Position numbers and translations under genes: made by a program | NCBI GenBank assembly: GCA_001773215.1 | Contig: MEWB01000001.1 | Coordinates: forward strand, 151,108 to 215,107 | Reading direction: 5' to 3' | Length of the DNA stretch: 64,000 bases | DNA from: a candidate division WWE3 bacterium RIFOXYC1_FULL_40_10 | Lineage (GTDB): Bacteria; Patescibacteriota; WWE3; UBA101185; UBA10185 | The notes under the pieces: model-generated | Database searches by the model: none | What the model was told of the DNA's origin: nothing | What the model saw: only the letters and a program-made list of their open reading frames with translations | Part shown: positions 3,711 through 62,004 of the stretch, in pieces | Numbering within the stretch: the first letter of the stretch is position 1 | Layout: each line of letters opens with the position of its first letter

Positions 3711-5555
3711 ATGCCACAAAATCCTGCTCCAGAAGCTCAAGGACAAGAAAAGTTACCTGAAGACTTAAAGGAAGTTTTAGGTGAGGGTGCTGCTGTACAT
3801 GACGAAGCAACTTCTATGATTCATGCAAACATGGGGGGGGCTATAAAAATGGCAGAGACAACTCTTGGAGAAGATGCAAAACCAGAGTTGGAAGCCATGA
3901 AGGAGCTAGCAGACAGAGCATCCGAAGCAAGAAGTGCATTTGAAACGAGAGCAGAAAGATTAAGCTCGCCTTATGTTGTATCCCCAGAACTACAAAAAAC
4001 ATTAAGAATAGCTACCGTTTTGAAAAAACCATTACTACTTGAGGGTGAACCTGGTACTGGAAAGACATCTTTAGCTTACGCATTAGCAGGAGAGGAAGAC
4101 CTTCCTTTAATACATTGTCGAGGTAAGAGTACATTAACTGCTCAATCTGTAATGTACGAAATAGATTATGTTGCCAGATTGAATGATGCGACCCTCACTC
4201 AAGCTATTCCAGAAAATATGCGAGCAGAAGCGGGAAAATGGGAAAGTTATTTGAAAGCAGGAAATGACCCCAACAGCACCGAATTTCAGGGATTTATGCG
4301 TGGTCTCGATAATGCTGCAAGACTCCTAAATTTAGGCAGGGTGTCGGATGTACGCAACTACATTAGTTACGGCGAGCTTGGCGAAGCAATAATTAGAGGT
4401 TCAAGAGGTGAAAAAGTAATTTTGCTTTTTGATGAGGTTGATAAAGCTAAAAGAGAGTTTCCTAACGATTTGCTTGATGAGTTGGAACACATGACTATGC
4501 GTATTCGGGAGACAGGGGAGGAAGTTAGTTCGCCCAGGGAAAACATTGTTGTTGTAATAACCTCTAACCATGAAAGAGATTTGCCAGAGCCATTTTTAAG
4601 AAGATGTGTCTACAGCTATTTGGAATTTCCAAAACCAGACCAACTAACGGAAATAGTCAAAGCTCATATACCAGATGTGGAAGAAAAGCTTTTACGAAGT
4701 GCTGTTACAAGATTTTATGAAATAAGGGAAACGCAAGGCTTGCAAAAACCTCCTTCCACTTCAGAAATGTTGGATTGGGTAAAAGTATTGATGGAATTTG
4801 GTATTGAAGAAGTTGGTGGTGCAACGCCACTTCCAGAAGCAGTATTAAAAATAAAAGAAGACATGGACTTAGTTAGAAAACGGGAAAAAGAAACACGAAC
4901 AGGTGTATACGAAGCTGATGATTATGATGAGTTTTCAGTTTTAGAGGCGTACGAAATGGAAACGGCAGCGATTGAAGCCTTACGAGGAAGCAGGGTAGTT
5001 AACTTCAAGGGTGAGGAATACTACAGAGACAGACCTTCCTCGGAACTACTGATGGCACTTGCTAACGGGGGAGTAGCATTTAAGTATTCTGAAAGAGATA
5101 GAGAACCTTTTGAGATACTTGTGGATGGCGTGAAAATGGTTGCTCCTATGACTTTTGTATTCCCTCATAGACTTAGTGCTGAAGAACTTGCTTTATCTAC
5201 AGACGAAATACTTCAGAGGCAACAGGATAAACCAGAAGGTGAAAGAATGGGTAGAAGGCAGATAATCCAGGAAAAAAAGGCTAGCAGACTCCTAGCAGCT
5301 TTGGAAGAAGGCAAATTAGTTGCAGGAGAGTTTGTAGTAACCGAGCAGCCAGTTGCATTTACGGGTGTCGAAACATCTAATCAGTACTTTGTTAAAGGTA
5401 AAGATGCTTCTGGTAGAACTATATTTAGAACATCGGATGGCAAGTATATTTATGAAAAATCTACTAGTGAGGTGTCCAGCGAACCATCTGACGAAGATTT
5501 ATTAGGTTCAGCAACACTCAAGAAGCTTTCCTTTGACGATGAAGACGAAAAGTGA
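3711..5555 (+). CDS. MoxR/CoxD-like AAA+ ATPase
   Basis: Walker A LLLEGEPGTGKTSLAYALA, Walker B VILLFDEVDKA, sensor region ITSNH. Immediately followed by a VWA protein, which is the canonical MoxR-VWA pairing. Confidence 0.7.
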   Translation: MPQNPAPEAQGQEKLPEDLKEVLGEGAAVHDEATSMIHANMGGAIKMAETTLGEDAKPELEAMKELADRASEARSAFETRAERLSSPYVVSPELQKTLRIATVLKKPLLLEGEPGTGKTSLAYALAGEEDLPLIHCRGKSTLTAQSVMYEIDYVARLNDATLTQAIPENMRAEAGKWESYLKAGNDPNSTEFQGFMRGLDNAARLLNLGRVSDVRNYISYGELGEAIIRGSRGEKVILLFDEVDKAKREFPNDLLDELEHMTMRIRETGEEVSSPRENIVVVITSNHERDLPEPFLRRCVYSYLEFPKPDQLTEIVKAHIPDVEEKLLRSAVTRFYEIRETQGLQKPPSTSEMLDWVKVLMEFGIEEVGGATPLPEAVLKIKEDMDLVRKREKETRTGVYEADDYDEFSVLEAYEMETAAIEALRGSRVVNFKGEEYYRDRPSSELLMALANGGVAFKYSERDREPFEILVDGVKMVAPMTFVFPHRLSAEELALSTDEILQRQQDKPEGERMGRRQIIQEKKASRLLAALEEGKLVAGEFVVTEQPVAFTGVETSNQYFVKGKDASGRTIFRTSDGKYIYEKSTSEVSSEPSDEDLLGSATLKKLSFDDEDEK

Positions 5556-5576
5556 AAAGTTTCCTAAGGGCTTCAA

Positions 5577-7382
5577 ATGAGTGAAAAATTTACACCAGAA
5601 CCAGAAGTTCCTCAAGAAGAACCCTTAGCAAGCAAGGGTAAACCTGAAGTTTCAGTAAAGCTACCAGAATCCCCAGACATTAAAATCGATATTGAAAAAA
5701 AAGAAATAATAATCCTTTCCGAAGGTACTGAAACTGGTGAAAAAAGGCATCCTTTTCAAGAGTTTATGTATCACCTAAGGGGTGAAGGTATAAGAGTTTC
5801 CACAGGAGAGTGGCTAGACCTACAAACGCTGCTTGCGGCTGGAGAAGTACAGAGTTTGGACGAGCTTTATGTAGTAGCAAGAGCAGTTTTAGTTAAGGAT
5901 GCAGTTAATTATCCAAAATATGATGTAGCTTTTGGAAAACTTTTTTATGGTATAGAACCTCCAAGCGAGGAGGAAGAAGAAAATGAGGATAGCTATGATG
6001 AGCAAAATGATTACGATGACCCGCAAGACGGTACTGAATCTGAGGATGCTTTAAGGGAAAAGGCAGAGGTTGAAGAAAAAGAGAAAAAGGAAAAATCTGA
6101 ACCAAGCGAACCTGAAACAGACAAAGAAGCGGAGGAGGATGATGCTGAGGATAAGGAAGCAGAAAAGAAGGAGAAGAAAAAAGAGGAAGAAAAAAAGAAA
6201 CCAATACAAAAAGAAAAAGAGGATATTGATGAAGTCGAGGAAGCGACTTCTAAAACGACAGAAGATAAGCATGGTGGCGATGAGGCGACTAAGGATATTG
6301 AAGATTCACCTAACCCTGCTGATGAGGGCAAGAACAAGGAAAACAAAGGTGCTGAAAAAGGCGAGGATGGTTCGGAAGGTAAAGGCGAAGGTGAGGGTGG
6401 TGAAAAGAAGACGAAGAAAGGTACTGTTGGCGAAGGGGGTAAAAATAAAAGTGGTATGGGGAAAGAAGGTGAGGGCGAAGAAGAGGAGGAAACAGACGAA
6501 GCTGATGAAACAGATGAAAAAAAAGAAAGCAAAAAAGGAACTGGTAAATCTGGAGGAGGCGGGGGTAAACACAAAAAGAAATCAAAGGAAAGTGTTATGC
6601 GTGCTAGCGGTAAAGGAGGTTACGCATCTGCGAGAGAACGAGTTCAACAGAGGGAATACGAGGAGCTTAGAGATGATAGGACTCTTGGCTATGAGCAGTT
6701 CGGTAGAGCTTTATCTAAATTACGCACAATTGTACAGGAAACTACTTCTGCCAAAACTAGGACATTAGATGCCAGAGCTACAGTAAGAGCTATTGCCGAG
6801 CATGCAGGGACTCCAGAGCTGCTGTGGAAGGAAGAAGTGGAGGAGAAGCCTAGTGTAGTGCTTTTATTTGATGTTGGTGGGAGCACAGACGAATACAGAC
6901 CCATTCTTGAAAAACTATTTTCAGCAGCAAAAGACCATTTAGAAGGTTTAGAGGTCTATTATTTCCACAATGCTATCTATGGTGAGGTATGGCCGCAGAA
7001 AGATGGCAATTGGGGTAAGCACTTTGTGCCAGTATCCGATATTTTGAAAAAAGATTCTTCCACAAAGTTTATTATTATTGGCGATGCTTGGATGGCTGAC
7101 AGCGATGCAATGAATGGTGGTCTTCACGACTCTTATTTGGACTTAGACCCAGATGCAAAAAAGACTGAGCCTTGTTATAGGTGGACAGGACTCGAAAACT
7201 TTCAAGCAATAACCGAAGCTTTTCCAGCAACTGTGTGGGTAAATCCTATTTTAGAAAAACACCGAGACGATGCAGACGATTCTGGAACAATAGCGGATGT
7301 AGAAAGAGTTATTACTATGTATGACCTGAGTTTAAGAGGTATAGAAGCGGCAGTTAAGAAACTTATGGAAGAGGAACAGTAG
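5577..7382 (+). CDS. VWA-domain (CoxE-like) protein with about 230-aa E/K/D/G-rich low-complexity linker
   Basis: C-terminal LLFDVGGSTDEY...FIIIGDAWMADSD resembles a VWA/MIDAS-like fold partner of MoxR ATPases. Central region 5930-6600 is poly-acidic/basic (EEEEENED..., KKEKKKEEEKKK). Confidence 0.55.
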   Translation: MSEKFTPEPEVPQEEPLASKGKPEVSVKLPESPDIKIDIEKKEIIILSEGTETGEKRHPFQEFMYHLRGEGIRVSTGEWLDLQTLLAAGEVQSLDELYVVARAVLVKDAVNYPKYDVAFGKLFYGIEPPSEEEEENEDSYDEQNDYDDPQDGTESEDALREKAEVEEKEKKEKSEPSEPETDKEAEEDDAEDKEAEKKEKKKEEEKKKPIQKEKEDIDEVEEATSKTTEDKHGGDEATKDIEDSPNPADEGKNKENKGAEKGEDGSEGKGEGEGGEKKTKKGTVGEGGKNKSGMGKEGEGEEEEETDEADETDEKKESKKGTGKSGGGGGKHKKKSKESVMRASGKGGYASARERVQQREYEELRDDRTLGYEQFGRALSKLRTIVQETTSAKTRTLDARATVRAIAEHAGTPELLWKEEVEEKPSVVLLFDVGGSTDEYRPILEKLFSAAKDHLEGLEVYYFHNAIYGEVWPQKDGNWGKHFVPVSDILKKDSSTKFIIIGDAWMADSDAMNGGLHDSYLDLDPDAKKTEPCYRWTGLENFQAITEAFPATVWVNPILEKHRDDADDSGTIADVERVITMYDLSLRGIEAAVKKLMEEEQ

Positions 7383-7455
7383 AAACCCAAGTTTGTCGTT
7401 ATAACCACTATAAGATATAATACCCCTTACAAAACTGCATTTCCTATCAAAAATC

Positions 7456-7869
7456 ATGGAGGAAAGAATGGAAGACACAATTGGTGTTTTATGCCCATTC
7501 ACAGGCAAGGGAAACCTTCCTGTGCCGACTAGCCCTGTGTGGGCGGGCAGCGTGCCAGGTGAGAACATCTGGTACTTTAGTCATGACGAAGTGGAATCGG
7601 ATGGTCTGGCTGATGCTGTTGGACACCTCATGGGTGAAGAGACGGATATTCGCAAGACTATGCGTTGCATTGAAGCCCTTCAAAATAGTGGCAACTTGCA
7701 ACGAGTTGGAGAGTGGTGGTTTTTGCGTTTGCCGCAGCTTCCACGCCTTGAACTTCCAAGCGTTGCCGATATTGTGCTTGCTGTAGCTGACGGTACAGAC
7801 ATTGTGAGTGAAACACGCTCCAAGTTTGAAACCTACGCTCAGCAGCTCCAAACGGCATTGACGCAATAA
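7456..7869 (+). CDS. Hypothetical protein encoded in locally GC-rich (about 50%) segment
   Basis: 137-aa ORF. Surrounding 7.45-7.9 kb has visibly higher GC than flanks and open frames on both strands. Coding status uncertain. Confidence 0.3.
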   Translation: MEERMEDTIGVLCPFTGKGNLPVPTSPVWAGSVPGENIWYFSHDEVESDGLADAVGHLMGEETDIRKTMRCIEALQNSGNLQRVGEWWFLRLPQLPRLELPSVADIVLAVADGTDIVSETRSKFETYAQQLQTALTQ

Positions 7870-7982
7870 GGACTAAATCCAAAGGCCAAGAACACATCCA
7901 GTCCGCTTGAAGAAGAGCCTGTTAAGGGTAAAAAAACCTTTCGCAGGCTCTTTCTGTTTTATGTAGGTGTTAAAATATATGT

Positions 7983-8465
7983 ATGCGAAGGCTTACTGAA
8001 AAGCAACAAAAATTTATTGAAAAGTTAAATGCTGGTATTACACCTGTAGTTGCCGCCGAAGACTTGTACCGTTGTAAAAATCGTAATGTAGCCAGAGTCA
8101 TAGCGTCAAAAAATGTTAATCATCCTGTTATCTTTGAAAAAGTACGAGATGCTTTAGATTATCCTGGTTCAAAAGCTAGGGTAGAGCATATTGTAAAGGT
8201 AATTGAAGATGGTTTAACTGCTAACAAGACCATCATTACGAGGGTAGGGGACTTAGTGGAAGTACCAGACCACAAAACACGCTTGTATGCAGCACAGCTA
8301 GCTTTAAGAGTTCGTGGCGAACTTAAAGATATTATTGTTGATAACACATCTCATGATATTCATGTAAGTTTTAAGCTAATAAAAGCCAGAAGTCCTGAGG
8401 AAGTAGCCAGAGCAATGGGTAATACGAATACCAGGGCAGCAATACTGGAAGGTGAAACTAGTTAA
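7983..8465 (+). CDS. Putative phage terminase small subunit-like / HTH DNA-binding protein
   Basis: N-terminus LTEKQQKFIEKLNAGITPVVAAEDLY...ARVIASKNVNHPVI parallels the TerS N-terminal pattern (LSPKQE(R/K)F..EY...NATQAA..AGYS...). Weak, by eye. Confidence 0.3.
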   Translation: MRRLTEKQQKFIEKLNAGITPVVAAEDLYRCKNRNVARVIASKNVNHPVIFEKVRDALDYPGSKARVEHIVKVIEDGLTANKTIITRVGDLVEVPDHKTRLYAAQLALRVRGELKDIIVDNTSHDIHVSFKLIKARSPEEVARAMGNTNTRAAILEGETS

Positions 8466-8784
8466 TAAACGGTTAATGCTTACTTCCAGGACATCCCTTA
8501 AAAGGGTTACCTTGCCTGTGTGTTTTATTTTTCTTTCCCAGAACCATGTCGTTATTCGATGCTTATACGACATCTTTGTATTGAGGCAAATGCTGTAATA
8601 TCAAGCAAAAACAGTTGTACTCATGCGTCTTCTGTGTAACACACCTCTGATTTAATCTCATAGTGTGTGTTTTTGCTTTACGCTTTTGGGCTTGAGGGGT
8701 GTCACGCCGCCGCCGAGCGTTGATGAGCGTATGAGAAGAAAAAATCCGAAACCATAGGTATAATGTCTTCACATAAACATAAAT

Positions 8785-9429
8785 ATGAGTATAAACACAG
8801 ATAAATATAAAATAGTACCGCATGCAGCAGTCTTACTGGTGCAAAAAATACTGGAGAAGACAGAACCTCTTGCTGATACCAATGTGATATATCTTGAGCA
8901 TGTTTCCAGACAGCAGCAGAATACCTCTAAAACCTTTGTTTACGACAGTAGAAGCACAATAGAGTACTTGTACGGTGTTGGCATACTCCATGAGATTCGC
9001 CGAATAAAAAATGATGGTAGAACAGTAGAAGATTGGAAATACAAAGTCCATTTTTATAGAAGTAAGGCAATCGATTTTCTTCAAAATCTACCACTAGACG
9101 AAAACATTTACGAAATAACCTACGATGACCACATGCGTGAGATAAAAATAAACGGGAAACTTTTGACCAAGACATACTTTGGCAGCGATACGGATATGCT
9201 GTTTGAGCATGTTTACACTCATCCTGGCATACTATTGGGAAAAACTAGTATAGAGGTGGCAATCGACCAGAAGATGCGTACTTTAGCTGCAATTGTAAAA
9301 GACTTAAAATTTGTGGGTGTTTATAGAGAAGTATTTTTCCCTGTGGTTACTAAAACCCAGATTAAGTTCGTCAATCCTATTACCAGGCGTTATGCCTTAG
9401 AGAACCATCTTCCATCATTACCCTTATAA
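8785..9429 (+). CDS. Hypothetical protein (element-borne)
   Basis: 214-aa ORF with no recognised motif. Lies within the putative integrative element. Confidence 0.35.
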   Translation: MSINTDKYKIVPHAAVLLVQKILEKTEPLADTNVIYLEHVSRQQQNTSKTFVYDSRSTIEYLYGVGILHEIRRIKNDGRTVEDWKYKVHFYRSKAIDFLQNLPLDENIYEITYDDHMREIKINGKLLTKTYFGSDTDMLFEHVYTHPGILLGKTSIEVAIDQKMRTLAAIVKDLKFVGVYREVFFPVVTKTQIKFVNPITRRYALENHLPSLPL

Positions 9430-9503
9430 ATCAGTTTATGTGGTTTTATGCGAGTTTGTGCGTATTGGCTCACTAACCCCTTTCTATATGTGATTCTGGT
9501 TAC

Positions 9504-9749
9504 ATGGATAAGGCAGAATCAACATTATATAAGACTTCGACATTACCCCTAGCGGTATGCCTGTCCTTAATTTATCCCTTGAAATCAATTGAAAAAGGTA
9601 GCGACAGAAATCTGGTTTTTGTATTTGAAGAAACCAAGGACTTGCTTGATTCCATTGAACTTTATTGGAACAAACAGCTCCAAGTTGAACCGCAGTCATT
9701 TTTCTCCAGAATGCGGGAACTGAAAGCGAGGCTTTATGAACAGGTGTAA
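9504..9749 (+). CDS. Hypothetical small protein
   Basis: 81-aa ORF upstream of primase. Confidence 0.2.
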   Translation: MDKAESTLYKTSTLPLAVCLSLIYPLKSIEKGSDRNLVFVFEETKDLLDSIELYWNKQLQVEPQSFFSRMRELKARLYEQV

Positions 9750-9877
9750 AGTTCCGCAGGTTTCATATAAGGCGGTGGCACTTGCTCGTATTGAGGAAAA
9801 ACTGGACAAAGTTTATCAAATTATTTTCCAGCAAATGGAAAGCATGGGAATGACCCAGGAAGGCAATAAGAATAAAA

Positions 9878-12070
9878 ATGAATCAGGTGGAAACAATAAC
9901 AATTAAAGAATATCTTGATACGAAAGGCATACCATACAAAGAAAAGGGTAAAGAGCTTATAACAGCATGTGTTTTCAATAGCTGCGACAGCGACAGTCAT
10001 GCAGGTGAGGAACACTTATATTTTGATGCAGACACTTCTCAATATAAATGTTTCAAATGCGGTGAGACTGGAAATATCTTCACGCTTTGTGAGTTTTTAG
10101 GCGATGACAAGAAAACAGTAATTAAACAAAGTACTTCTGTGGGAACGGCAAGAGGCGTCAAAATTACTCTTGAGCAAATAGAAAGCTATCATAAAGCCCT
10201 ACCAGACCGCATAAAAAAATATCTTGAGGAAAAGAGAGGTATATCCACAGACTGGCAAAATACTTTTATGCTAGGGTGGGGTTCTTTTTATGGGAAAAAC
10301 TGGATAGTTATACCTTACAAGGATGCAGTAGGTAACTTTTCCTACCTAAAGCTTAGACGAGACCCTGAAACTGGTGAGGGCGAAAAGTATATGCGATTCC
10401 CAAGCGGGGCTGAATCAGCCATATACGGCATCGAAGTGTTGAGGGAAGAACAAGACTTACTTCTGATAACGGAGGGGGAGTTTGACGCTATGGTTGCAAC
10501 CATAAACGGAATCTCTGCAATATCTTTTTCTACAGGTGCGGGTAGTTACAAAAATGAAATCCGAAAACATGCGGAGCAGCTAAAGAAAATCAAGAAAATT
10601 TATGTGTGTCTGGATGCCGATATTGCGGGTATCGCCGCATCTACTGAAGTTATGAAGGAGCTTTTAGCGTTTGCACCTGATGCGGAACTTTACAGAGTAG
10701 ATTTATCGGAAAAGGTTAGGGGTGTTGGTAAAGATATTACGGATTATTTTGCTAGCTGCGGAGGTACTCCTGATGAACTTATTTATAAACTGGCAACTCG
10801 TTTTACGAAAGAAGATGTTGGGAAGGTAAACAGAATAATAACTGTACCCAAACCACAAAAAGATGTGTCGATAGAAGGTTGGAGAAATATAATTATTTCA
10901 ACTTTCCCCACCTTGCTTTTTCCTGCGGAGCTGTCTTTGTCTGTTTTAGGGCAGCTACTTATAAACGATATTAGTAATCCTTTCGGTTTGGTTTTGGTAG
11001 GTATGCCTTCTTCTGGAAAAACCATTACTCTCAACTTCTTTTCTGATGTTGACGAGCTTGTGTTTTGCTCGGACAAGTTTAGTGCAGCAGCTTTTGTTTC
11101 CAACGCTTCAAATGTTAAGGCAGAAAAGTTAGCCGAAATAGACCTTTTGCCAAAAATTCGCTACAAACTTTTTGAAGTGCGGGACTTAGCGACTCTATTT
11201 AGTAAGCGTGACGACGACTTGAATGAAGCTCTCGGTTTACTTACAAGAGTATTTGACGGTGAAGGCATTTTTACAGATTCAGGCACTCACGGACACAGGG
11301 GTTACAAAGGTGAATATCTGTTTATGTTCTTAGGTGCAACAACGCCAGTTTCACCAAGAGTATGGAAAATGATGGGCAATTTGGGTAGCCGTCTTTTCTT
11401 TTACAACATTGATAGTCCCGCAAAGACGGAATCAGAACTCATGGAGCAGATTACAACAAGCTCTTATAAGCAGAAAGAGAAGAAATGTCGTGAGGTAACA
11501 AAAGATTTTGTTTATAGTTTATGGAACGAGCATCCGAAAGGCATTACTTGGAAAAAAGAATCCGACTCGCCAAGAGCAAAAAGCCTGGTAGCAAAATCCG
11601 CCATATTTTTGGCAAGACTTAGGGGCGTGATAAACATTTGGAAGGACAGAAACGAATATTGGAGTTCGGACGAATATAACTTCACCATGCCTGTGGTTGA
11701 GCAACCAGACCGCTTAAATCAACTTTTTTACAATCTTTCAAGAGGGCATGCTGTTATTTGTGGACGAGATTACATTGATGACACCGATTTGAAGTTTGTA
11801 ATTGAGTTGGCAATACAAAGTTCTGAATATGTAAGGTCTTCAATCATGCGTGGACTTCTGAAGAATGGAGGTAGTCTCAAAACCAGCCAGGTTGAAAAGT
11901 TATTAAATTGCTCAAAGCCTACAGCATTAAAAGAAATGGAGGTGTTAAAAATACTAGGCTTATGTGACTACCGTGAAGAACTAACACTAGGATACCCTGG
12001 CAATAGTGAGAAACTTCTTGTGCTAAAAGAAGACTTTATGTGGTTACTAGAGGAACTAAAAAGAGAATAA
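9878..12070 (+). CDS. DNA primase (zf-CHC2 + TOPRIM) fused to C-terminal P-loop NTPase domain; mobile-element replication initiator
   Basis: N-terminal zinc finger CVFNSCDSDSHAGEEHLYF...YKCFKCGETGN. TOPRIM LLLITEGEFDAMVA ... CLDADIAGIAAS. Downstream Walker A GMPSSGKT. Architecture matches P4-alpha/SaPI Pri-Rep-type proteins. Confidence 0.7.
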   Translation: MNQVETITIKEYLDTKGIPYKEKGKELITACVFNSCDSDSHAGEEHLYFDADTSQYKCFKCGETGNIFTLCEFLGDDKKTVIKQSTSVGTARGVKITLEQIESYHKALPDRIKKYLEEKRGISTDWQNTFMLGWGSFYGKNWIVIPYKDAVGNFSYLKLRRDPETGEGEKYMRFPSGAESAIYGIEVLREEQDLLLITEGEFDAMVATINGISAISFSTGAGSYKNEIRKHAEQLKKIKKIYVCLDADIAGIAASTEVMKELLAFAPDAELYRVDLSEKVRGVGKDITDYFASCGGTPDELIYKLATRFTKEDVGKVNRIITVPKPQKDVSIEGWRNIIISTFPTLLFPAELSLSVLGQLLINDISNPFGLVLVGMPSSGKTITLNFFSDVDELVFCSDKFSAAAFVSNASNVKAEKLAEIDLLPKIRYKLFEVRDLATLFSKRDDDLNEALGLLTRVFDGEGIFTDSGTHGHRGYKGEYLFMFLGATTPVSPRVWKMMGNLGSRLFFYNIDSPAKTESELMEQITTSSYKQKEKKCREVTKDFVYSLWNEHPKGITWKKESDSPRAKSLVAKSAIFLARLRGVINIWKDRNEYWSSDEYNFTMPVVEQPDRLNQLFYNLSRGHAVICGRDYIDDTDLKFVIELAIQSSEYVRSSIMRGLLKNGGSLKTSQVEKLLNCSKPTALKEMEVLKILGLCDYREELTLGYPGNSEKLLVLKEDFMWLLEELKRE

Positions 12071-12154
12071 TTAAGTTATAATTACACATAGTGTCATGTA
12101 TCCTTTATCGATAAAGATAATCTGACGCTGTATCTGCCCAGAAAGAAGTATTTT

Positions 12155-13750
12155 ATGAGATTAGCTTTTTATGGCAGAGTAAGCACTCAAAGACAGGAAA
12201 AAGAAGAAACGATAGAAAACCAACTTTTGGTAGTTAAAGAAAAATTTGAGAAGGAAGGTCATGTATTTGTTAAGGATTATATCGATGAAAATTGGTCGGG
12301 GATGGTTTTGGAGAGACCTGATTTAGACCAATTAAGGCTTGATGCTGCTTCTGACTTATGGGAGGGCATTGCAATGTACGATACCGATAGATTAAGCCGC
12401 AAGTATATGCACCTGTGTATCCTACAGGAAGAGTTTGAGAAGGCAGGGAAGCAGCTATTGTTTGTTACGATTAAGACACCCGAAAATGATGAAGACCGTC
12501 TGATGTTTGGAATAAAAGGCTTGTTTAGTGAATATGAACGCTACAAAATTTCTGAAAGATTTAGATTAGGGAAGTTACGAAAGGCTCGTTCAGGGCAATT
12601 GATAATTTCACATGCACCTTTTGGGTATCGCCTCTTTAAAAAAACCGACAAAGAACATACTAGGATTGAAATAGAGCCTTACGAAGCAGAAGTAATAAAA
12701 ATGATTTTTACATGGCTTGGCGAAGAGGGTTGTAGCATCAGAGAAGTTATAAGAAGGCTTACAGATAAAGGTATACAGCCAAGAAAGAGCATGCGTAAAG
12801 TTTGGGCAACTTCCACAATAAATAACTTTATACACAACGAAACATATATGGGGACGGCATATTTTGGAAAATCTAAAGCTATAGAACCTAAAAACCCATT
12901 AAAGATTGAAAAGTATAAGCGGATAAAGAAGACTAGCCGTGTTCTTAGACCTAAAGAGGATTGGATACTAATAAAAGTTCCAACTATAATTACAGAAGAG
13001 CTATACAACAAAGTAAGAGCTAGGATGGAAGTTAACTCAAAATTTGCACCTAAGAATAAAAAACATGAGTACCTGTTAACTAGCTTGGTTGCATGTCCAT
13101 GTGGCTACAACAGAGTGGGGGAGCAAGGAAGGTATTACAGATGCAGCCAGCGTATTTATACATTTCCAGTAAAACAGTCCTGTACAGAAGGTGGTGTTGA
13201 TTCCAGCATGCTAGATTCTATGGTATGGCAGGAAATTTCTCAGCTCTTGTTGCAAAAAGACCTGATACTCGACTATTACAATAGGTGGACTGACTCGTTA
13301 AATGCTAAACACAATACTTATGAATCTCAAGTTAAGCCCTTAGAAAGAGGCTTAGACAGCTTAGAACGAGAATCTGCAAGGTATGTGAAAGCATTTGGTG
13401 CTGGATTGCTCGACTTTCAACAGTTTCAGGAGCTAAAAGTAGAGTTGGACAATAAAAGGTTATTGTTACAGGCTCAAATAAGTGTTAAAAAGTCTAGTGC
13501 AGACGAAGCGAAACGGACTCACTTAACAGAGGGAATGGTTGACACTTATTGCCAATTTGCATCAGCAGCGTTAAACGGTTTGTCATTTCAACAGAAACAA
13601 GAGATACTTAGAACGGTGGTTGAGAAGGTTACAGCCACACAAAAGGAAGCAATTATTTATGGTTACATACCCGTTAAAAAACTTAATACAAAGGAGGATA
13701 TCCTAAATGTCGAGCAGCGTCCTATCCATAGGAATCATTGGATTGCCTAA
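12155..13750 (+). CDS. Large serine recombinase (serine integrase)
   Basis: Catalytic N-terminus MRLAFYGRVSTQRQ (Y-x-R-V-S-T-x-x-Q). Recombinase domain, Cys-rich zinc ribbon CPCGYNRVGEQGRYYRCSQR and coiled-coil C-terminus. 531 aa. Confidence 0.8.
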   Translation: MRLAFYGRVSTQRQEKEETIENQLLVVKEKFEKEGHVFVKDYIDENWSGMVLERPDLDQLRLDAASDLWEGIAMYDTDRLSRKYMHLCILQEEFEKAGKQLLFVTIKTPENDEDRLMFGIKGLFSEYERYKISERFRLGKLRKARSGQLIISHAPFGYRLFKKTDKEHTRIEIEPYEAEVIKMIFTWLGEEGCSIREVIRRLTDKGIQPRKSMRKVWATSTINNFIHNETYMGTAYFGKSKAIEPKNPLKIEKYKRIKKTSRVLRPKEDWILIKVPTIITEELYNKVRARMEVNSKFAPKNKKHEYLLTSLVACPCGYNRVGEQGRYYRCSQRIYTFPVKQSCTEGGVDSSMLDSMVWQEISQLLLQKDLILDYYNRWTDSLNAKHNTYESQVKPLERGLDSLERESARYVKAFGAGLLDFQQFQELKVELDNKRLLLQAQISVKKSSADEAKRTHLTEGMVDTYCQFASAALNGLSFQQKQEILRTVVEKVTATQKEAIIYGYIPVKKLNTKEDILNVEQRPIHRNHWIA

Positions 13751-14819
13751 TGTAGGCAAATCTACTTTATTTAATGCGTTGTTAAAGAGACAGGCTGCTT
13801 TGGTTGCAAACTATCCCTTTGCGACAATTGAGCCAAATATAGGAATGGTGGACGTCCCTGACAGTAGATTACATAAAATGGCGGAGTATGTGAGAAATGA
13901 TTATGGTCGAAAGTTGGGGGATAGGGAAGTGCCCGAGAAAATTATTCCCGCTGTTGTGAAATTTTACGATATCGCAGGTTTAGTTAAGGGAGCCAGCCAG
14001 GGTGAAGGACTAGGTAACGAATTTCTTGGTCACATCCGAGAGGTAGACGCCCTAATTCATGTTGTAAGAGACTTTTCAGACGAAAATATTATAAGATCCG
14101 GATCTGTTAGCCCTAAAGAAGATGTATCAATCATAGAAACCGAGCTTATTTTGTCGGATTTGGCAGTTATAGAAAAAATAATTAATACTTTGTCTGCAGG
14201 GAATAAGTCTATTAAGAACCCTAAAGTTACTCAAAAAATTGACATCCTTAATACAGTGAAAACCAATTTCGAAAAAGGTGTGTCTGCCAGATCTATAGGT
14301 TTATCAGAGAAAGAAATAGAAGTAATCTTTGACGTTCCTTTATTAACTCTGAAGCCGGAGCTGTATTTATACAATGTAGATGAGGATGAAGTAGCGGAAA
14401 AATCTAAAGCAGACTCTGATAGTTCGATTTTTCTCTGTGCAAAGATTGAATCAGAGTTAGCGGGATTTTCCGAGGAGGAAAAAATTCAATACCTCACACA
14501 TTTAGGGTTGCAAGAGAGCGGATTAGATAGGGTAATCAGAAAAGGCTATAAACTGCTATCCTTGCAGAGCTTCTTAACGATGGGACCAAAGGAAGTTAGG
14601 GCATGGACGATAAAAAAAGGCACTAACGCCAGAAAGGCATCTGCAAAGATCCATACCGACTTTGAAAAAGGCTTCATAGCGGCGGATATAATAAATTTTG
14701 ATGAATTGGATAAGATTCAAAGCCTTAGAAAAGCAAGAGACTTGGGTTTAGTTAGACTTGAAGGGAAGGACTATTTAATGCAAGAGGGCGATGTAGTTGA
14801 GTTTAGAATAAATGTATAG
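13707..14819 (+). CDS. ychF: Ribosome-binding ATPase YchF (Obg-family GTPase with TGS domain)
   Basis: IGIIGLPNVGKSTLFNAL P-loop at N-terminus. C-terminal TGS-like segment. About 365 aa length typical. Confidence 0.85.
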   Translation: MSSSVLSIGIIGLPNVGKSTLFNALLKRQAALVANYPFATIEPNIGMVDVPDSRLHKMAEYVRNDYGRKLGDREVPEKIIPAVVKFYDIAGLVKGASQGEGLGNEFLGHIREVDALIHVVRDFSDENIIRSGSVSPKEDVSIIETELILSDLAVIEKIINTLSAGNKSIKNPKVTQKIDILNTVKTNFEKGVSARSIGLSEKEIEVIFDVPLLTLKPELYLYNVDEDEVAEKSKADSDSSIFLCAKIESELAGFSEEEKIQYLTHLGLQESGLDRVIRKGYKLLSLQSFLTMGPKEVRAWTIKKGTNARKASAKIHTDFEKGFIAADIINFDELDKIQSLRKARDLGLVRLEGKDYLMQEGDVVEFRINV

Positions 14820-25016: not shown

Positions 25017-25700
25017 TTATTTAAGCTGGATCACAGGGATCCACTCAGATTTGCTGAGCGCAGCATTTTGTAATACGCTAACTCCCGGGCTTTCAACACC
25101 TGCTATTACTGGGTTAACAAAAAATCTCTTGCTCCATATACCATCCTGTGCATAGCCCGCGAAAATACGCTCAATCCAGTTGGTAACTGCCCAGGCCGGA
25201 GTTGAGTTCCAGGGAATAGTCCTCAATCGTTCGGTTTCCATCTTTGTAAACGAACCCGGCACATTGTTCCATGGTTTAGTTCTTCTCCAATTACTCCATT
25301 CCAGCAAATAGCGGTAGTCTATCAACTCTATTGTTGATATAACTGCCCCTGAGTTGGCCAGCTCCCGAGGAGGTTGCGGGACCTCCAATGGATTTTCAAC
25401 TAATAATATGGCGTCGGCTGTAGCAAATAAGGCCGTGGTAGTTGAAATTTCCACTCCTTGATTTTGCAATTCTCCTCTAAGAGAAAGTGATTTCTCTAGA
25501 GCAACTTTCCCCCGATCCGATAACCCGGGGTCAAATCTTGTTACCAGGCTATTGGTTTCCTTATTGAATCTCCACCCATTTTTTCTGATATTTGGGCATA
25601 TCCAAAAAATCAGATCTAGTGGTAGTTGAAGATGCTCTTGTGTCAGATTCCTTGTGTTGGCCACGCCTTTTAATGTTCTTATATCACTTGGTTTTAACAT
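25017..25700 (-). CDS. Hypothetical protein
   Basis: 227-aa ORF. No recognised motif. Confidence 0.35.
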   Translation of the reverse strand: MLKPSDIRTLKGVANTRNLTQEHLQLPLDLIFWICPNIRKNGWRFNKETNSLVTRFDPGLSDRGKVALEKSLSLRGELQNQGVEISTTTALFATADAILLVENPLEVPQPPRELANSGAVISTIELIDYRYLLEWSNWRRTKPWNNVPGSFTKMETERLRTIPWNSTPAWAVTNWIERIFAGYAQDGIWSKRFFVNPVIAGVESPGVSVLQNAALSKSEWIPVIQLK

Positions 25701-43126: not shown

Positions 43127-43477
43127 ATGAGTAAAGTGGCTTTGGTAAATATGGTTCAGGATATTACGGCAGAGGCTCAAACCCAAGAAGTAATCGCGGC
43201 TGCACAAAATCATCGCAAATTCTATATGTGCACTGATAAGGGGGAATATCTTTTGATTGAAACCAAGGGGCACAAGTGTTTCATAAGCCCCCAGGGGTAT
43301 TGTCGAGGTACCCTTGCAGTACGCTACTTAGAAAAAGTTGCAGGCAAGCCGGTACTCTACGAGTGCACTCTGAAATTTGAGACCTTTGTGGGTATCTTGT
43401 CAGCTTCTGCATCCAAGCCCGCTTATGAGATATTGGCAACATACGTTAAGGAGAATTGTACTCGCTTGGCTTCCTAG
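43127..43477 (+). CDS. Hypothetical protein
   Basis: 116-aa ORF. No motif recognised. Confidence 0.3.
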   Translation: MSKVALVNMVQDITAEAQTQEVIAAAQNHRKFYMCTDKGEYLLIETKGHKCFISPQGYCRGTLAVRYLEKVAGKPVLYECTLKFETFVGILSASASKPAYEILATYVKENCTRLAS

Positions 43478-44142
43478 ATAACTCGGGCCGGTTGGGAGTT
43501 TAAAAAACTTTTAACCGGCTCAAAACTTTTTCTGTGGAGTTCGCACGGTCCATTTCGTGTAATCGCTTCTATGTGCTGTTTTGTGCCGTACCCCTTATGT
43601 TTAGCAAAACCGTATTCAGGATAAGTACTGTCATGGGTTTTCATTATTTGATCACGATAAACCTTGGCAACAATTGAGGCTGCCGCAATTGAAATGCTTT
43701 TAGTGTCACCTCTCACAATGTTTGTTTGCTTTTCGGGAGCAAAGCTTGGAACTATGAAACTGTCGGTGAGTACATGGTCAAGCGCTATTTTTAACCGTGA
43801 GATCGCCCTTTTGAATCCTAGCAGATTACACTTACCTATTCCCGTTCTATCTATTTCCTCTACTCCTATTTCCACAATAGAAAACTCAATAGCATTAGTT
43901 CTTATAAATGAATCCAAATTTATGCGCATTTTTTCAGGAAGTTTCTTTGAGTCGTTTATTTTCGAATAATTTTCAGACAGCACGTCGTTATTTGTGAGTA
44001 TGCTTTCCAGATTTAATACTACTGCCGCTACAACCAAAGGGCCTGCGAGCGGTCCCCTACCCACTTCATCGACACCCGCAATGAATTTCTTTCCTTGGTT
44101 AAATAATTGAGTTTCAAAGTCGAGTAATTGCTTCACTTTCAA
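43474..44142 (-). CDS. rnhB: Ribonuclease HII
   Basis: AGVDEVGRGPLAGPLVVAAVVL catalytic N-terminus. Confidence 0.85.
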   Translation of the reverse strand: MKVKQLLDFETQLFNQGKKFIAGVDEVGRGPLAGPLVVAAVVLNLESILTNNDVLSENYSKINDSKKLPEKMRINLDSFIRTNAIEFSIVEIGVEEIDRTGIGKCNLLGFKRAISRLKIALDHVLTDSFIVPSFAPEKQTNIVRGDTKSISIAAASIVAKVYRDQIMKTHDSTYPEYGFAKHKGYGTKQHIEAITRNGPCELHRKSFEPVKSFLNSQPARVI

Positions 44143-60682: not shown

Positions 60683-61360
60683 TCAATGAGATGAGATTTC
60701 TATTACCAGGCACTCCAGAGCCAGTCGTACATTTACATTTGTTTTTTCGATATCCTCTAATTTCGCAATCAAAGCTTGCAAATTGCTTGCCGTTTGGACC
60801 GGTTTTGAGGCTAATTGTTCTCGTGCCTGTTTAATAAGATTTTCTAAAATATCAGAAATTTCGTCTTTTTCCAGTTTTGCAGTTTCTTCTGCCCATTCCA
60901 ACTTTGTGCCTAAGTCTGCTTCGAGCAAAAAATTATAATCAGCCTCAGTTAGGGTTTCTTCTTGCTGGCCGGATTTCACCGGAAACTTTTTGCACCTGGA
61001 TATAACAGTCTCCAGTAGATCTTTGACAGTTTTTGCTATCAATATTATAGTTGCGTACTCCGGAGGTTCTTCGAGGGATTTTAACAGCATGTTTTGTGTT
61101 TTTGTACTAAGTTCTTCTGCTTTTGGGAAGATTAATAGCTTGTAATTTTTCGAAAAAGGTTTTTTCTTTAAAAAATCTATAGCTTGTTTCACATCTTCAA
61201 CGGTATATCCTGATTTGTTTGAGGGCGTGACAAGCTTAATATCGGTTAACTTGGTGGTTGCAAGATCAATATCTTCATTTGTGATCTCTTTGATTATCTG
61301 TTCCGCTTTGGTGTTACGGTCTTTAACCGATCCACCGTAGATTAATATTGATGCTGACAT
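60683..61360 (-). CDS. holB: DNA polymerase III delta' subunit-like clamp-loader protein
   Basis: LIYGGS... and LLKSLEEPP (clamp-loader sensor-2 region signature). 225 aa. Confidence 0.55.
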   Translation of the reverse strand: MSASILIYGGSVKDRNTKAEQIIKEITNEDIDLATTKLTDIKLVTPSNKSGYTVEDVKQAIDFLKKKPFSKNYKLLIFPKAEELSTKTQNMLLKSLEEPPEYATIILIAKTVKDLLETVISRCKKFPVKSGQQEETLTEADYNFLLEADLGTKLEWAEETAKLEKDEISDILENLIKQAREQLASKPVQTASNLQALIAKLEDIEKTNVNVRLALECLVIEISSH

Positions 61361-61376
61361 GCTACTTATTATACAG

Positions 61377-62004
61377 GAGCTGCTCCAACGCTAGAGCAGC
61401 TCCAAAGGCGGAGCTACTCCTGTAGGAATGGAAATTACTCTCTTCCCCTTTCCCTAAAATCTAGATATACAGGTATATATGCCTGCGATTAACTCCTTAA
61501 AAAAATACGTTCAAGGTGGAATTTATCATGTATACAACAGGGGAAATCGGAAAAGTGAAATTTTTTTAGCGGCTCAGGACTATGATATTTTCTGTTATTT
61601 ATTGGAAAGATATTTACTCCCATGTCCTGTTTCTATGAGATGCAAGAGCTACTCTAACCAGATTAAAGTACACGCTTTTTGTTTGATGCCCAATCACTTT
61701 CATCTACTGCTAGAGCAGATCCAAGAGAGGGCTATATCCAGCTTCATGCACGGTCTTTGTCTGAGTTATTCTATGATATTTAACAAACGGTATGAGAAGG
61801 TTGGCAGACTGTTTCAAGGAGTGTACAAAGCACGTCTTATCACAAGAGAATCCGAGATAAGCACCGTGGCATCTTACATACACATCAACCCTTCCGAAGT
61901 AGGAGCTACTCCGGAGGATTACCCCTATTCTAGTTATGGTTGTTATCTAGGGAAAGACACGTGTAGATTTCTAACGACGGAGCTGCTCCAACGCTAGAGC
62001 AGCT
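61377..62004 (+). mobile_element. IS200-like / REP-associated tyrosine transposase (RAYT) element bounded by identical 27-bp hairpin sequences
   Basis: GGAGCTGCTCCAACGCTAGAGCAGCTC present at 61377-61403 and 61978-62004 in the same orientation. Each forms a 9-bp stem (GAGCTGCTC/GAGCAGCTC) with 8-nt loop. Additional nested palindromes at both ends. Confidence 0.7.
61479..61997 (+). CDS. tnpA: HUH-family Y1 transposase (IS200 TnpA / RAYT)
   Basis: YHVYNRGNRKSEIF (N-terminal beta-strand block), HUH motif CLMPNHFHLLLE, C-terminal catalytic Tyr region GVYKARLI...YPYSSYGCY. 172 aa. Confidence 0.75.
   Translation: MPAINSLKKYVQGGIYHVYNRGNRKSEIFLAAQDYDIFCYLLERYLLPCPVSMRCKSYSNQIKVHAFCLMPNHFHLLLEQIQERAISSFMHGLCLSYSMIFNKRYEKVGRLFQGVYKARLITRESEISTVASYIHINPSEVGATPEDYPYSSYGCYLGKDTCRFLTTELLQR

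What the first reader, a model, noticed from the sequence alone, without database searches (positions are those of the whole stretch)
7400..13750. Compact integrative element with serine integrase, primase-helicase and TerS-like gene, reminiscent of a phage satellite (PICI-like)
A same-strand block encodes three phage/plasmid-type proteins. The first is a small protein (7983..8465) whose N-terminus resembles phage terminase small subunits. The second is a zf-CHC2/TOPRIM primase fused to a P-loop domain (9878..12070). The third is a 531-aa large serine recombinase (12155..13750). Several ORFs between them are unassignable. The block sits directly beside core genes, and its left part is GC-richer than the host. 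The combination integrase + pri-rep + terS with no capsid or tail genes is the minimal gene set of phage-inducible chromosomal islands. Such an element in a reduced-genome, low-GC bacterium would be unusual. The alternative is an integrated plasmid or defective prophage remnant.
Basis: partly seen in the sequence, partly recalled or inferred. Interest (0 to 1): 0.75.

Follow-up and report, generated by a model that had tools for sequence, protein, structure and literature searches.

The report
Small satellite-like integrative element in WWE3
A 6.3-kb mobile element sits at the start of the ychF gene of a tiny-genome WWE3 (CPR) bacterium. It carries its own integrase, a primase-helicase and a small-terminase-like gene. 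It belongs to a large, apparently undescribed family of such elements across CPR bacteria, and some of them may spread by borrowing phage capsids.

Summary
The three ORFs are at the stated coordinates. They encode a large serine recombinase (LSR), a DnaG-type primase fused to an MCM-like AAA+ helicase with a winged helix, and a divergent Terminase_2 (TerS) homolog.

The host is a candidate division WWE3 bacterium from the Rifle aquifer (about 0.9 Mb, GC 0.40).

The block is not a prophage remnant. It belongs to a family found in more than 80 metagenomic loci, built as DUF5659 – small ORF – primase/helicase – LSR. No capsid genes were seen in the family, and none of its loci was found in IMG/VR.

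This LSR clade sits directly upstream of ychF in seven independent lineages. Most other clades abut tRNA genes.

The likely ends are TCCTATC at 7442-7448 and 13720-13726, inside ychF codons 5-7. On that reading the element would supply the ribosome-binding site and start codon of ychF. This is inferred.

The TerS-like gene is under purifying selection but occurs in only a few family members. A relative at the same site carries a TerL gene.

A satellite lifestyle is plausible but unproven: I found no empty site, no circular form, no excision factor and no helper phage. Verdict: a new variant of a known kind, of moderate to high interest.

The parts
7393..7421 (+). Sigma-70-like promoter (TTGTCG-17-TATAAT) in the 73-bp gap after the VWA gene, just left of the proposed attL.
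   Evidence: 10 of 12 matches. 7400-7520 is identical in the diverged strain L175, whereas the neighbouring VWA gene is about 85% identical.
7442..7448 (.). Proposed attL core TCCTATC, the left end of the element.
   Evidence: The same 7-mer occurs at 13720-13726. The Plass protein P0253 diverges from the window exactly upstream of 7444. Inferred, not demonstrated.
7420..7436 (.). Imperfect direct repeat (15 of 17) of 13667-13683. It is either an alternative crossover candidate or a relic of an older LSR 3' end.
   Evidence: Unexplained.
7456..7869 (+). ORF137 within a GC-rich (0.50), strongly folding segment (7440-7960). Either a protein of unknown function or a structured RNA.
   Evidence: GC. 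Fold z -5.7 on the + strand against -2.3 on the - strand. Synonymous to nonsynonymous changes 11:11. No family or Rfam hits.
7913..7960 (+). Terminator-like hairpin (17-nt arms) followed by a U-rich tail, ending the first transcription unit.
   Evidence: (I4).
7983..8465 (+). Divergent small-terminase (Terminase_2/TerS) homolog.
   Evidence: Purifying selection, 24 synonymous to 4 nonsynonymous changes.
8785..9429 (+). ORF214, unknown function. It occupies the slot of a hypervariable 240-600-aa protein that lies upstream of DUF5659 in relatives.
9504..9749 (+). DUF5659 protein, a hallmark gene of the family.
   Evidence: E 4e-10. Found in 32 related loci.
9736..9906 (+). ORF56, a positional analogue of the roughly 63-aa 'c3' gene of relatives. 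Homology is not significant.
   Evidence: E 0.13.
9878..12070 (+). Replication protein: DnaG-type primase (zf-CHC2, TOPRIM) fused to an MCM-like AAA+ helicase and a C-terminal winged helix.
12090..12129 (.). Palindrome in the primase-LSR intergenic gap, possibly an operator.
   Evidence: I3. The function is inferred.
12155..13750 (+). Large serine recombinase (integrase). Its last 44 nt overlap ychF.
   Evidence: The catalytic-serine motif YGRVSTQRQ is present.
13694..13730 (.). A 37-nt block identical to the sister element L172, against a background of about 55-73% identity in the flanking 150-nt windows. It spans the spacer after the ribosome-binding site, the ATG, and ychF codons 1-8. It contains the proposed attR core TCCTATC (13720-13726).
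13707..14819 (+). ychF, the target gene. Its first 6-7 codons, ribosome-binding site and start codon are probably supplied by the element.

Best explanation
Window positions about 7442-13726 are a 6.3-kb integrative, self-replicating mobile element. It belongs to a large CPR-wide family.

Shown:
- It encodes an apparently intact large serine recombinase, a DnaG-primase::MCM-like-helicase replication protein, a DUF5659 protein and a TerS homolog.
- The module DUF5659 - small ORF - primase/helicase - LSR recurs in dozens of CPR loci with varied flanks.
- This LSR clade always lies directly upstream of ychF.

Inferred:
- The LSR recombines an attP that overlaps its own 3' end with an attB inside the first codons of ychF (core TCCTATC). 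The element then replaces the ribosome-binding site, start codon and first 6-7 codons of ychF.
- After excision the circle is replicated by the primase-helicase, as proposed for SaPI Pri-Rep and SCCmec Cch.
- In this sub-lineage the TerS-like protein recognises element DNA and hands it to a helper phage's large terminase, so that copies are packaged into borrowed capsids. That is a minimal phage-satellite lifestyle.

Confidence is about 0.85 that this is an integrative replicative element of this family. It is about 0.4 for the satellite step. The overall figure reflects the whole chain.
For: Domains and folds:
- LSR domains.
- Primase: a profile of the family matches solved DnaG primases at 3e-15.
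- Walker A, TOPRIM acidic residues and zinc-finger cysteines are invariant across 27 homologs, the window protein included.

Family:
- More than 365 homologs; the 120 best listed are mostly near full length at 41-52% identity.
- 83 loci were clustered: 42 with an LSR, 32 with DUF5659, others with a tyrosine integrase.

Site specificity:
- The LSR is immediately upstream of ychF in the window, L113, L119, L172, L173, L174 and L180. LSR identity to the window protein is 33-65%.
- Other clades abut tRNA genes on the opposite strand.

att site:
- A 37-nt block is identical between the window and L172, against a background of about 55-73% identity.
- The TCCTATC core occurs at both ends, and TATCAATAG at both ends of L173.
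- The P0253 breakpoint lies at 7443/7444.
- Element-linked ychF genes have 8 residues before the G[IV][IV]G motif and start ATGTC[GA]. Element-free genes have 3 or 5 residues.

TerS:
- Family members hit PHROG_51 at 2.7e-11 and Terminase_2 at 2.5e-4.
- Of the top 60 profile hits, 46 match Terminase_2 and 57 match PHROG_51.
- Synonymous to nonsynonymous changes are 24:4 against strain L175.
- Its homolog P0268 is the first gene of same-family elements.
- The relative L180, at ychF, carries TerL (PHROG_2, 2e-44) and no capsid genes in the span read.
Against: - No empty site and no circular junction. All 23 contigs read (of 41 indexed sample blocks), and the diverged strain L175, have the element at the same place. 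No circular contigs were found.
- No recombination directionality factor or HTH_17 gene is present in the window element, although relatives have one.
- The TerS-like gene is absent from nearly all family members. No other packaging gene is found in the recurrent gene clusters.
- No family member occurs in IMG/VR.
- On its own, the window TerS is below Pfam's cut-off (E 0.2) and its AlphaFold model is poor (pLDDT 44).
- The host-side arm at attL lacks a canonical start codon for a pre-insertion ychF, and a second repeat (7420-7436 / 13667-13683) competes as the crossover.
- P0253 is a protein-level assembly and may be chimeric.
Confidence: 0.5

Rival explanations
1. It is an integrative plasmid-like replicon with no link to phages. 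The element excises and replicates through the LSR and the primase-helicase. It spreads by other routes, such as DNA uptake or vesicles. The TerS-like protein is a repurposed HTH DNA-binding regulator or origin-binding protein, filling the slot that XRE regulators fill in relatives.
For: - Most family members have an XRE-type HTH gene (cluster c5) at the left end instead of a TerS-like gene.
- No packaging genes occur in the recurrent clusters.
- None of the family is in IMG/VR.
- The direct TerS match covers only the N-terminal HTH.
Against: - Profile hits extend over residues 2-112, including the central helix motif PDHxxRLxAxxLAL that follows the HTH.
- The nearest homologs by profile are overwhelmingly annotated terminase small subunits.
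- A relative at the same att site has a bona fide TerL.
Confidence: 0.33
2. It is a fixed, domesticated island that no longer moves. It is retained because ychF now depends on the start signals supplied by the element.
For: - It is present at the same site in every contig read and in a strain whose flanking VWA gene is about 15% diverged.
- No excision-factor gene is found.
- The ribosome-binding site and ATG of ychF lie within the block conserved with the sister element.
Against: - TerS, DUF5659 and other element genes are under purifying selection, and catalytic motifs are intact.
- Synonymous divergence of element genes (0.15-0.26 per codon) is lower than that of the flanking host gene (0.44, from a small sample), which hints at more recent exchange.
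- P0253 suggests a second junction context.
Confidence: 0.12
3. It is a decayed remnant of a full temperate phage that has lost its structural genes.
For: It carries phage-type genes: integrase, primase and TerS.
Against: - The same compact architecture recurs in more than 80 loci, and none shows capsid, portal or tail genes.
- Genes are intact and under selection.
- Its helicase domain has no homolog in 50,697 phage records.
Confidence: 0.05

Closest known systems
Phage-inducible chromosomal islands of the SaPI type (PICIs)
   Different: It is 6.3 kb rather than about 15 kb. It uses a large serine rather than a tyrosine integrase. No Stl/Str regulatory module, no capsid-size or packaging-interference genes and no recognisable excisionase were found. 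The primase is DnaG-type and fused to the helicase. The host is a CPR bacterium. Induction by a helper is untested.
Staphylococcal cassette chromosome (SCCmec): CcrAB/CcrC large serine recombinases plus the Cch MCM-like helicase and partner primase
   Different: The target is the 5' end of ychF rather than the 3' end of rlmH. There is a single LSR. The primase is DnaG-type, fused, and not the SCC A-family-polymerase type. There is no resistance cargo. The phylum is different.
PICMIs / VEIMEs (minimalist marine phage satellites, about 6 kb)
   Same: Similar size and minimal gene content: an integrase, a primase and a few unknown ORFs, with no structural genes (PMC10803314).
   Different: PICMI core genes are int, alpA, a DUF3987/DUF5906 primase and fis, with no terS. 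The window element has none of alpA, fis or that primase type, and it does have a TerS homolog.
Satellite P4 and tycheposon-type integrative replicative elements (recalled from my own knowledge, not tested here)
   Same: An integrase plus a fused primase-helicase replication protein in a compact element integrated next to a conserved gene.
   Different: P4's alpha protein is a primase fused to a superfamily-3 helicase, and P4 has sid/psu/delta. Tycheposons mostly use tyrosine recombinases and tRNA sites. No sequence relationship was found here.

Membership tests
Large serine recombinase (serine integrase) | N-terminal resolvase catalytic domain with the catalytic serine, a recombinase domain, and a zinc-ribbon/coiled-coil C-terminal region. 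| tested here: met
   Pfam Resolvase 4.7e-25, Recombinase 1.6e-18, Zn_ribbon_recom 3.3e-4 (below the cut-off). PHROG_95 2e-87. The YGRVSTQRQ motif is present.
Large serine recombinase (serine integrase) | Short att sites with a central crossover dinucleotide and only short identity between attL and attR. | tested here: inconclusive
   A 7-nt shared core, TCCTATC, occurs at both ends, and a 37-nt block is conserved with L172. A rival 15-of-17 repeat exists. No attB or attP was observed.
DnaG-type primase | CHC2 zinc finger, RNA-polymerase core and TOPRIM domain. | tested here: met
   Toprim_2 8e-7 and Zn_ribbon_DnaG 0.011. The family profile matches solved DnaG primases at 3e-15. Cysteines and the EGE/DxD acidic residues are invariant.
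MCM-like / Cch-Rep self-loading AAA+ helicases | AAA+ fold of the MCM clade with Walker A and B motifs, followed by a winged helix. | tested here: met
   [not shown]
Terminase small subunit, Terminase_2 (PF03592) | Sequence membership above Pfam's gathering score. | tested here: not met
   The window protein scores E 0.2, 12.7 bits against a 26.1-bit cut-off. The best family member scores 2.5e-4.
Terminase small subunit, Terminase_2 (PF03592) | Remote homology spanning the HTH and the central oligomerisation helices. | tested here: met
   PHROG_51 at 2.7e-11 for a family member. The profile search gave 333 hits that align to positions 2-112. Of the top 60, 46 are Terminase_2 and 57 are PHROG_51.
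Terminase small subunit, Terminase_2 (PF03592) | Adjacent large terminase gene, or demonstrated packaging function. | tested here: not met
   There is no TerL in the element or in the surveyed left third of the window. Function cannot be tested here.
PICI (SaPI-type satellite) | Integrase, divergent master-repressor module, pri-rep, terS or packaging-interference genes, about 10-18 kb, and no structural genes. | tested here: not met
   An integrase, a pri-rep analogue and a TerS homolog are present, and no structural genes are found. However, no repressor module was found, the size is 6.3 kb, and the integrase is a serine type.
PICI (SaPI-type satellite) | Excision, replication and packaging induced by a helper phage. 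| not testable with these tools
   No helper is known. No circular contigs and no IMG/VR members were found.
PICMI | Mandatory int, alpA, DUF3987/DUF5906 primase and fis genes. | tested here: not met
   The definition comes from PMC10803314. There are no AlpA/HTH_17, Fis or DUF3987/DUF5906 hits in the element.
CPR DUF5659-primase/helicase-LSR element family (defined here) | Collinear DUF5659, small ORF, primase/MCM-like helicase and integrase, at the boundary of a conserved gene. | tested here: met

The most novel reading that the evidence does not exclude
These are the first phage satellites of CPR/Patescibacteria. They would form a phylum-wide family of 5-10-kb elements with three unusual traits. 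First, the serine integrases have attP sites that overlap their own 3' ends and swap in a replacement end for the target gene (the 5' end of ychF or the 3' end of a tRNA). Second, replication relies on a DnaG-primase::MCM-like helicase fusion that I did not find in cultured phages or plasmids. Third, sub-lineages have acquired TerS, or TerS plus TerL, to hijack phage capsids. In addition, the 0.5-kb GC-rich, strongly folding segment beside attL would be a new element-encoded structured RNA rather than a protein gene.
Probability: 0.2. Interest if true: 0.8.

Novelty: new variant of a known kind. Interest (0 to 1): 0.6.

Why it matters
- CPR bacteria make up a large share of bacterial diversity and have tiny genomes, yet their mobile elements are almost uncharacterised.
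- A widespread family of small, self-replicating integrative elements would be a main route of gene flow in them.
- It would be a natural source of compact serine integrases with defined conserved-gene targets (ychF and tRNAs).
- It is a possible starting point for genetic tools in organisms that currently have none.
- If the TerS-bearing members are satellites, three-way host-phage-satellite conflicts extend to ultra-small episymbiotic bacteria.
- The DnaG::MCM-like fusion links bacterial element replication (SaPI Rep, SCCmec Cch) to a new primase partner.

Tried and rejected
1. **LSR-ORF137 fusion.** If the 15-of-17 repeat (7420-7436 / 13667-13683) were the crossover, the circular form would fuse the LSR in frame to ORF137 (654 aa). 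A search with that fusion gave only 529-605-aa LSRs covering 77-82% of the query, and none had an ORF137-like tail. I rejected it as a conserved feature.

2. **Empty-site search.** Exact-protein look-ups of ychF, the LSR and VWA gave only occupied sites. The genome-contig scan with ychF returned almost only Firmicutes and one distant Patescibacteria locus, L007, with no element. This was not informative for attB.

3. **Long direct repeats at element ends.** None were found in the window, L119 or L174, nor in the tRNA-targeting members, where the longest repeats are 12 nt or less. That is as expected for serine integrases.

4. **Circular contigs.** None were found among the loci fetched from L087 onward.

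5. **Viral database.** Nothing relevant in IMG/VR. tblastn of TerS, ORF137 and ORF214 against phages gave nothing useful.

6. **AlphaFold2 of the TerS-like protein.** pLDDT was 44, so I did not use the model for fold search.

7. **Structured RNA at 7440-7960.** There is no Rfam family. The apparent zero broken pairs in RNAalifold did not survive an unbiased test on the single-sequence structure (P = 0.22). Scores for 300-nt windows are in the tail but not unique. This remains open.

8. **Missing accessory genes.** HMMs of relatives' accessory genes (XRE c5, HTH_17-like c11, c4, c7, c10, c18) found nothing in the window element.

9. **Iterons or an origin.** No convincing repeat array was found.

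10. **Literature.** I found no paper mentioning DUF5659, and none of the listed search hits described CPR elements of this type.

Full report

Yes. The + strand carries ORFs at 7456-7869 (137 aa), 7983-8465 (160 aa), 8785-9429 (214 aa), 9504-9749 (81 aa), 9736-9906 (56 aa), 9878-12070 (730 aa) and 12155-13750 (531 aa).

On the left the block is flanked by a MoxR-type AAA_5 ATPase and a VWA_CoxE protein. On the right it is flanked by ychF, rpsF, ssb and rpsR.

- The 531-aa protein is a large serine recombinase (LSR). It has Resolvase, Recombinase and Zn_ribbon_recom domains and matches PHROG_95 at 2e-87.
- The 730-aa protein has a weak CHC2 zinc finger and a TOPRIM domain.
- The 160-aa protein matches the small-terminase family PHROG_51 at 4e-4, over residues 1-55 only.
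- ORF 9504-9749 is a DUF5659 protein (4e-10).
- The leftmost segment is GC-rich: 0.50, against 0.38-0.40 for the other element genes and 0.40 for the window.

The host is a candidate division WWE3 (Katanobacteria, CPR) bacterium from the Rifle aquifer. The same sequence lies on contigs of up to 904 kb.

**2. What are the three marker proteins?**

Walker A (GKT), the TOPRIM acidic residues and the four zinc-finger cysteines are invariant in the family, and the window protein has them. In 50,697 phage and 72,556 plasmid records only the N-terminal primase part has matches. No record covers the helicase domain.

*TerS-like protein.* It has only three close homologs. Members of this small family reach PHROG_51 at 2.7e-11 and Pfam Terminase_2 at 2.5e-4, although the window protein alone is below Pfam's threshold. 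A profile search of 1.84 billion representatives found 333 proteins at E <= 1e-3. They are mostly 110-190 aa long and align to profile positions 2-112. Of the 60 best, 46 match Terminase_2 and 57 match PHROG_51. The conserved pattern LTxKQxxF...AA..AY...A..IAS...P.I, followed by PDHxxRLxAxxLAL, covers both the HTH and the next helices. I therefore accept it as a divergent TerS homolog. Its function as a terminase subunit is not shown. Its AlphaFold model was too poor to use.

*LSR.* It has the catalytic-serine motif, and its best NCBIfam match is CcrB (2e-26, far below the cut-off).

**3. It belongs to a large family**

The primase-helicase has more than 365 homologs in metagenomes. The 120 best listed are mostly near full length at 41-52% identity. 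Many lie on CPR contigs of 0.1-0.9 Mb.

I fetched 80 loci from JGI metagenomes, plus others, and clustered their ORFs. The recurrent order has six parts:
- an XRE-type HTH gene of about 75 aa;
- a hypervariable protein of 240-600 aa, sometimes with a C-terminal HTH;
- DUF5659;
- an ORF of about 63 aa;
- the primase-helicase, or alternatively a separate zf-CHC2 primase plus a 450-aa helicase, or a PrimPol fused to the same helicase;
- a few small ORFs, sometimes including an HTH_17 gene, and then the integrase.

The integrase is an LSR in 42 loci and a tyrosine integrase in some others. Elements are about 5-10 kb. No capsid, portal or tail gene appeared. IMG/VR holds no member.

Against this family, a decayed-prophage reading is unlikely.

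ORF137, the TerS-like gene and ORF214 have no homologs in those loci. They form a variable left arm. The TerS-like gene recurs only in a few elements (L176-L178), where it is again the first gene of the element.

**4. Integration site**

In seven independent lineages the LSR gene lies immediately upstream of ychF, and its ORF runs into the first ychF codons. These are the window, L172 (LSR 65% identical), L180 (47%), L173 and L174 (45%), L113 (39%) and L119 (38%).

In most other family members the LSR 3' end abuts or overlaps a tRNA gene on the opposite strand. This holds for His, Ser, Asn, Lys, Trp, Asp, Leu, Glu, Val and Ala tRNAs. The family is therefore site-specific, with clade-specific targets, and its attP overlaps the 3' end of the integrase gene.

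*Evidence for the crossover.*
- The window and L172 share a perfectly identical 37-nt block, ATCCTAAATGTCGAGCAGCGTCCTATCCATAGGAATC (13694-13730). The flanking 150-nt windows are about 55-73% identical.
- TCCTATC occurs at 13720-13726 and, on the left, at 7442-7448, in the 73-bp gap after the VWA gene.
- In L173 a 9-mer, TATCAATAG, occurs at the equivalent ychF codons and in the left intergenic region. By length alone this could be chance.
- A protein-level assembly from a Rifle run (P0253) matches ORF137, plus the four codons upstream of it, with a single mismatch. It then continues into unrelated sequence exactly at 7443/7444.
- Element-linked ychF genes start ATGTC[GA] and have 8 residues before the G[IV][IV]G motif in 6 of 7 cases. 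In 83 element-free genes, mostly from other phyla, the number is 3 or 5.
- The attB reconstructed on this model contains a perfect 7-bp inverted repeat, TTCCTAT-CC-ATAGGAA. This is read directly from the sequence.

On this reading the element spans about 7442-13726 (6.3 kb) and supplies the ribosome-binding site, ATG and first 6-7 codons of ychF.

*Caveats.*
- The nucleotide after the shared core differs between the ends (CA against CC).
- The host-side arm at attL has no canonical start codon for a pre-insertion ychF.
- A second repeat, ATACCC[C/G]TTA[C/A]AAAACT (15 of 17; 7420-7436 and 13667-13683), gives an alternative crossover. That alternative would leave a canonical promoter, ribosome-binding site and ATG for ychF. 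However, it does not explain the position of the 37-nt block or the P0253 breakpoint.
- A 13-mer from the block, ATATCCTAAATGT, also appears at the left border of L119.

The crossover is therefore inferred, not settled.

**5. Is the element active?**

*For activity.* Catalytic motifs are intact. I compared codons with a related strain, L175, whose VWA gene is about 85% identical and which has the element at the same site. Synonymous to nonsynonymous changes were:

| Gene | Synonymous | Nonsynonymous |
|---|---|---|
| TerS-like | 24 | 4 |
| DUF5659 | 13 | 3 |
| ORF214 | 35 | 20 |
| Primase N-terminal part | 65 | 48 |
| ORF137 | 11 | 11 |
| Host VWA fragment | 29 | 2 |

*Against current mobility.*
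- All 23 contigs read (of 41 indexed sample blocks), and strain L175, are occupied.
- No circular contig was found.
- The window element lacks the XRE and HTH_17 genes present in relatives.

**6. Mechanism and rivals**

I think the most likely account is an integrative element that excises by the LSR and replicates through its self-loading primase-helicase, as proposed for SaPI Pri-Rep and SCCmec Cch (PMC9371898, PMC7581432). In this sub-lineage it would use its TerS homolog to have its DNA packaged by a helper phage's terminase.

The satellite step rests on four points:
- the TerS homology;
- the strong purifying selection on that gene;
- the absence of any virion gene;
- the relative L180.

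L180 sits at the same ychF site with a related LSR and the same helicase domain (25% identity, E 2e-16). It carries a clear TerL (PHROG_2, 2e-44), preceded by a 166-aa ORF in the TerS position, within about 8.8 kb that has no capsid genes.

The main rival is a phage-independent integrative replicon in which the TerS-like protein acts as a regulator or origin binder. Most relatives carry an XRE regulator in that slot, and no family member is in IMG/VR. A fixed, domesticated island is a third possibility.

**7. Comparison with known systems**

It works most like a minimal PICI/SaPI. It shares its LSR-plus-MCM-like-helicase logic with SCC elements. It is not a member of either:
- It fails PICI criteria on size, regulator module and integrase type.
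- It fails the PICMI definition (int, alpA, DUF3987/DUF5906 primase, fis).
- It differs from SCC in target, primase type and host.

I found no paper mentioning DUF5659, and none of the listed search hits described CPR elements of this architecture. The library is incomplete, so this is absence of evidence only.

**8. An unexplained feature**

The segment 7440-7960 has these properties:
- It is GC-rich.
- It is bracketed by a promoter-like site (7393-7421) and a terminator-like hairpin (7913-7960).
- It folds far better than shuffled controls on the + strand (z -5.7) but not on the - strand (z -2.3).
- The ORF inside it shows weak protein constraint.

No Rfam family matches. An unbiased substitution test gives no support for a conserved structure (P = 0.22). 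Scores for 300-nt windows (about -3) lie in the tail of the window-wide distribution but are not unique. Whether this segment encodes a protein or a large RNA is open.

**9. Verdict**

The finding is real, and it is more than a single oddity. It is one member of a widespread, apparently undescribed family of small integrative replicative elements of CPR bacteria, with an LSR clade targeted to the start of ychF and, in this lineage, a TerS homolog. The phage-satellite reading is plausible at roughly 0.4, but untested. I rate novelty as a new variant of a known kind, and interest at 0.6.

Noticed in passing
window 7440-7960 (+): A GC-rich (0.50) segment lies between a promoter-like site and a terminator-like hairpin. 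RNA fold z is -5.7 on the + strand and -2.3 on the - strand. ORF137 inside it shows weak protein constraint (11 synonymous to 11 nonsynonymous changes). There is no Rfam match, and the covariation test was inconclusive. It may be a large element-encoded RNA.
   Followed up: partly
L087, L096, L100, L103, L105, L106, L108-L110, L114, L115, L121, L126-L128, L139, L144, L159, L176 (right ends of elements): In about 20 family members the 3' end of the large serine recombinase gene abuts or overlaps a tRNA gene on the opposite strand, across ten tRNA identities. Serine integrases that systematically target tRNA ends are uncommon. Only short repeats (12 nt or less) mark the ends.
   Followed up: partly
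L180:1400-10162: A relative at the ychF site has an XRE gene, DUF4352, a DUF5659-like gene, a PrimPol fused to the same helicase domain, a 166-aa ORF, TerL (492 aa, PHROG_2 2e-44), HTH_17 and an LSR. These span about 8.8 kb with no capsid genes in the contig, so it is an element with its own terminase but no shell.
   Followed up: partly
protein P0253 (Plass assembly, run SRR3989339) against window 7444-7869: The protein matches ORF137, plus the four codons upstream of it, with a single mismatch. It is either a second junction context for the element or an assembly chimera.
   Followed up: partly
window 7420-7436 and 13667-13683: A 15-of-17 direct repeat links the left flank to the last conserved LSR codons (Y-I-P-V-K-K-L). 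The attL region looks like attR with about 36 nt deleted. This may be a relic of an earlier element at the same site.
   Followed up: partly
L173:11682-14227: The ychF gene beside this element appears split: a 321-aa N-terminal part, a 443-aa unannotated ORF, and a 33-aa YchF_C fragment. This may be an insertion within ychF.
   Followed up: no
L097, L106, L131 (downstream of the LSR): A second module of a 480-aa protein, a 600-aa helicase-domain protein and a 470-aa protein lies on the opposite strand just beyond the first element. This suggests adjacent or tandem elements at one hotspot.
   Followed up: no
window 3711-7382: A MoxR-type AAA_5 ATPase is paired with a VWA_CoxE protein. The VWA_CoxE protein carries a roughly 230-aa E/K/G-rich low-complexity insert (about 5900-6600), which produces spurious long ORFs in other frames and on the opposite strand.
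   Followed up: no
window 43260-43559, 61260-61559, 25260-25559: These 300-nt windows have the strongest RNA-folding z-scores in the coarse scan (-4.1, -3.7, -3.4). The scan used 20 shuffles per window. There is no Rfam hit at gathering thresholds.
   Followed up: no
[not shown]
   Followed up: no
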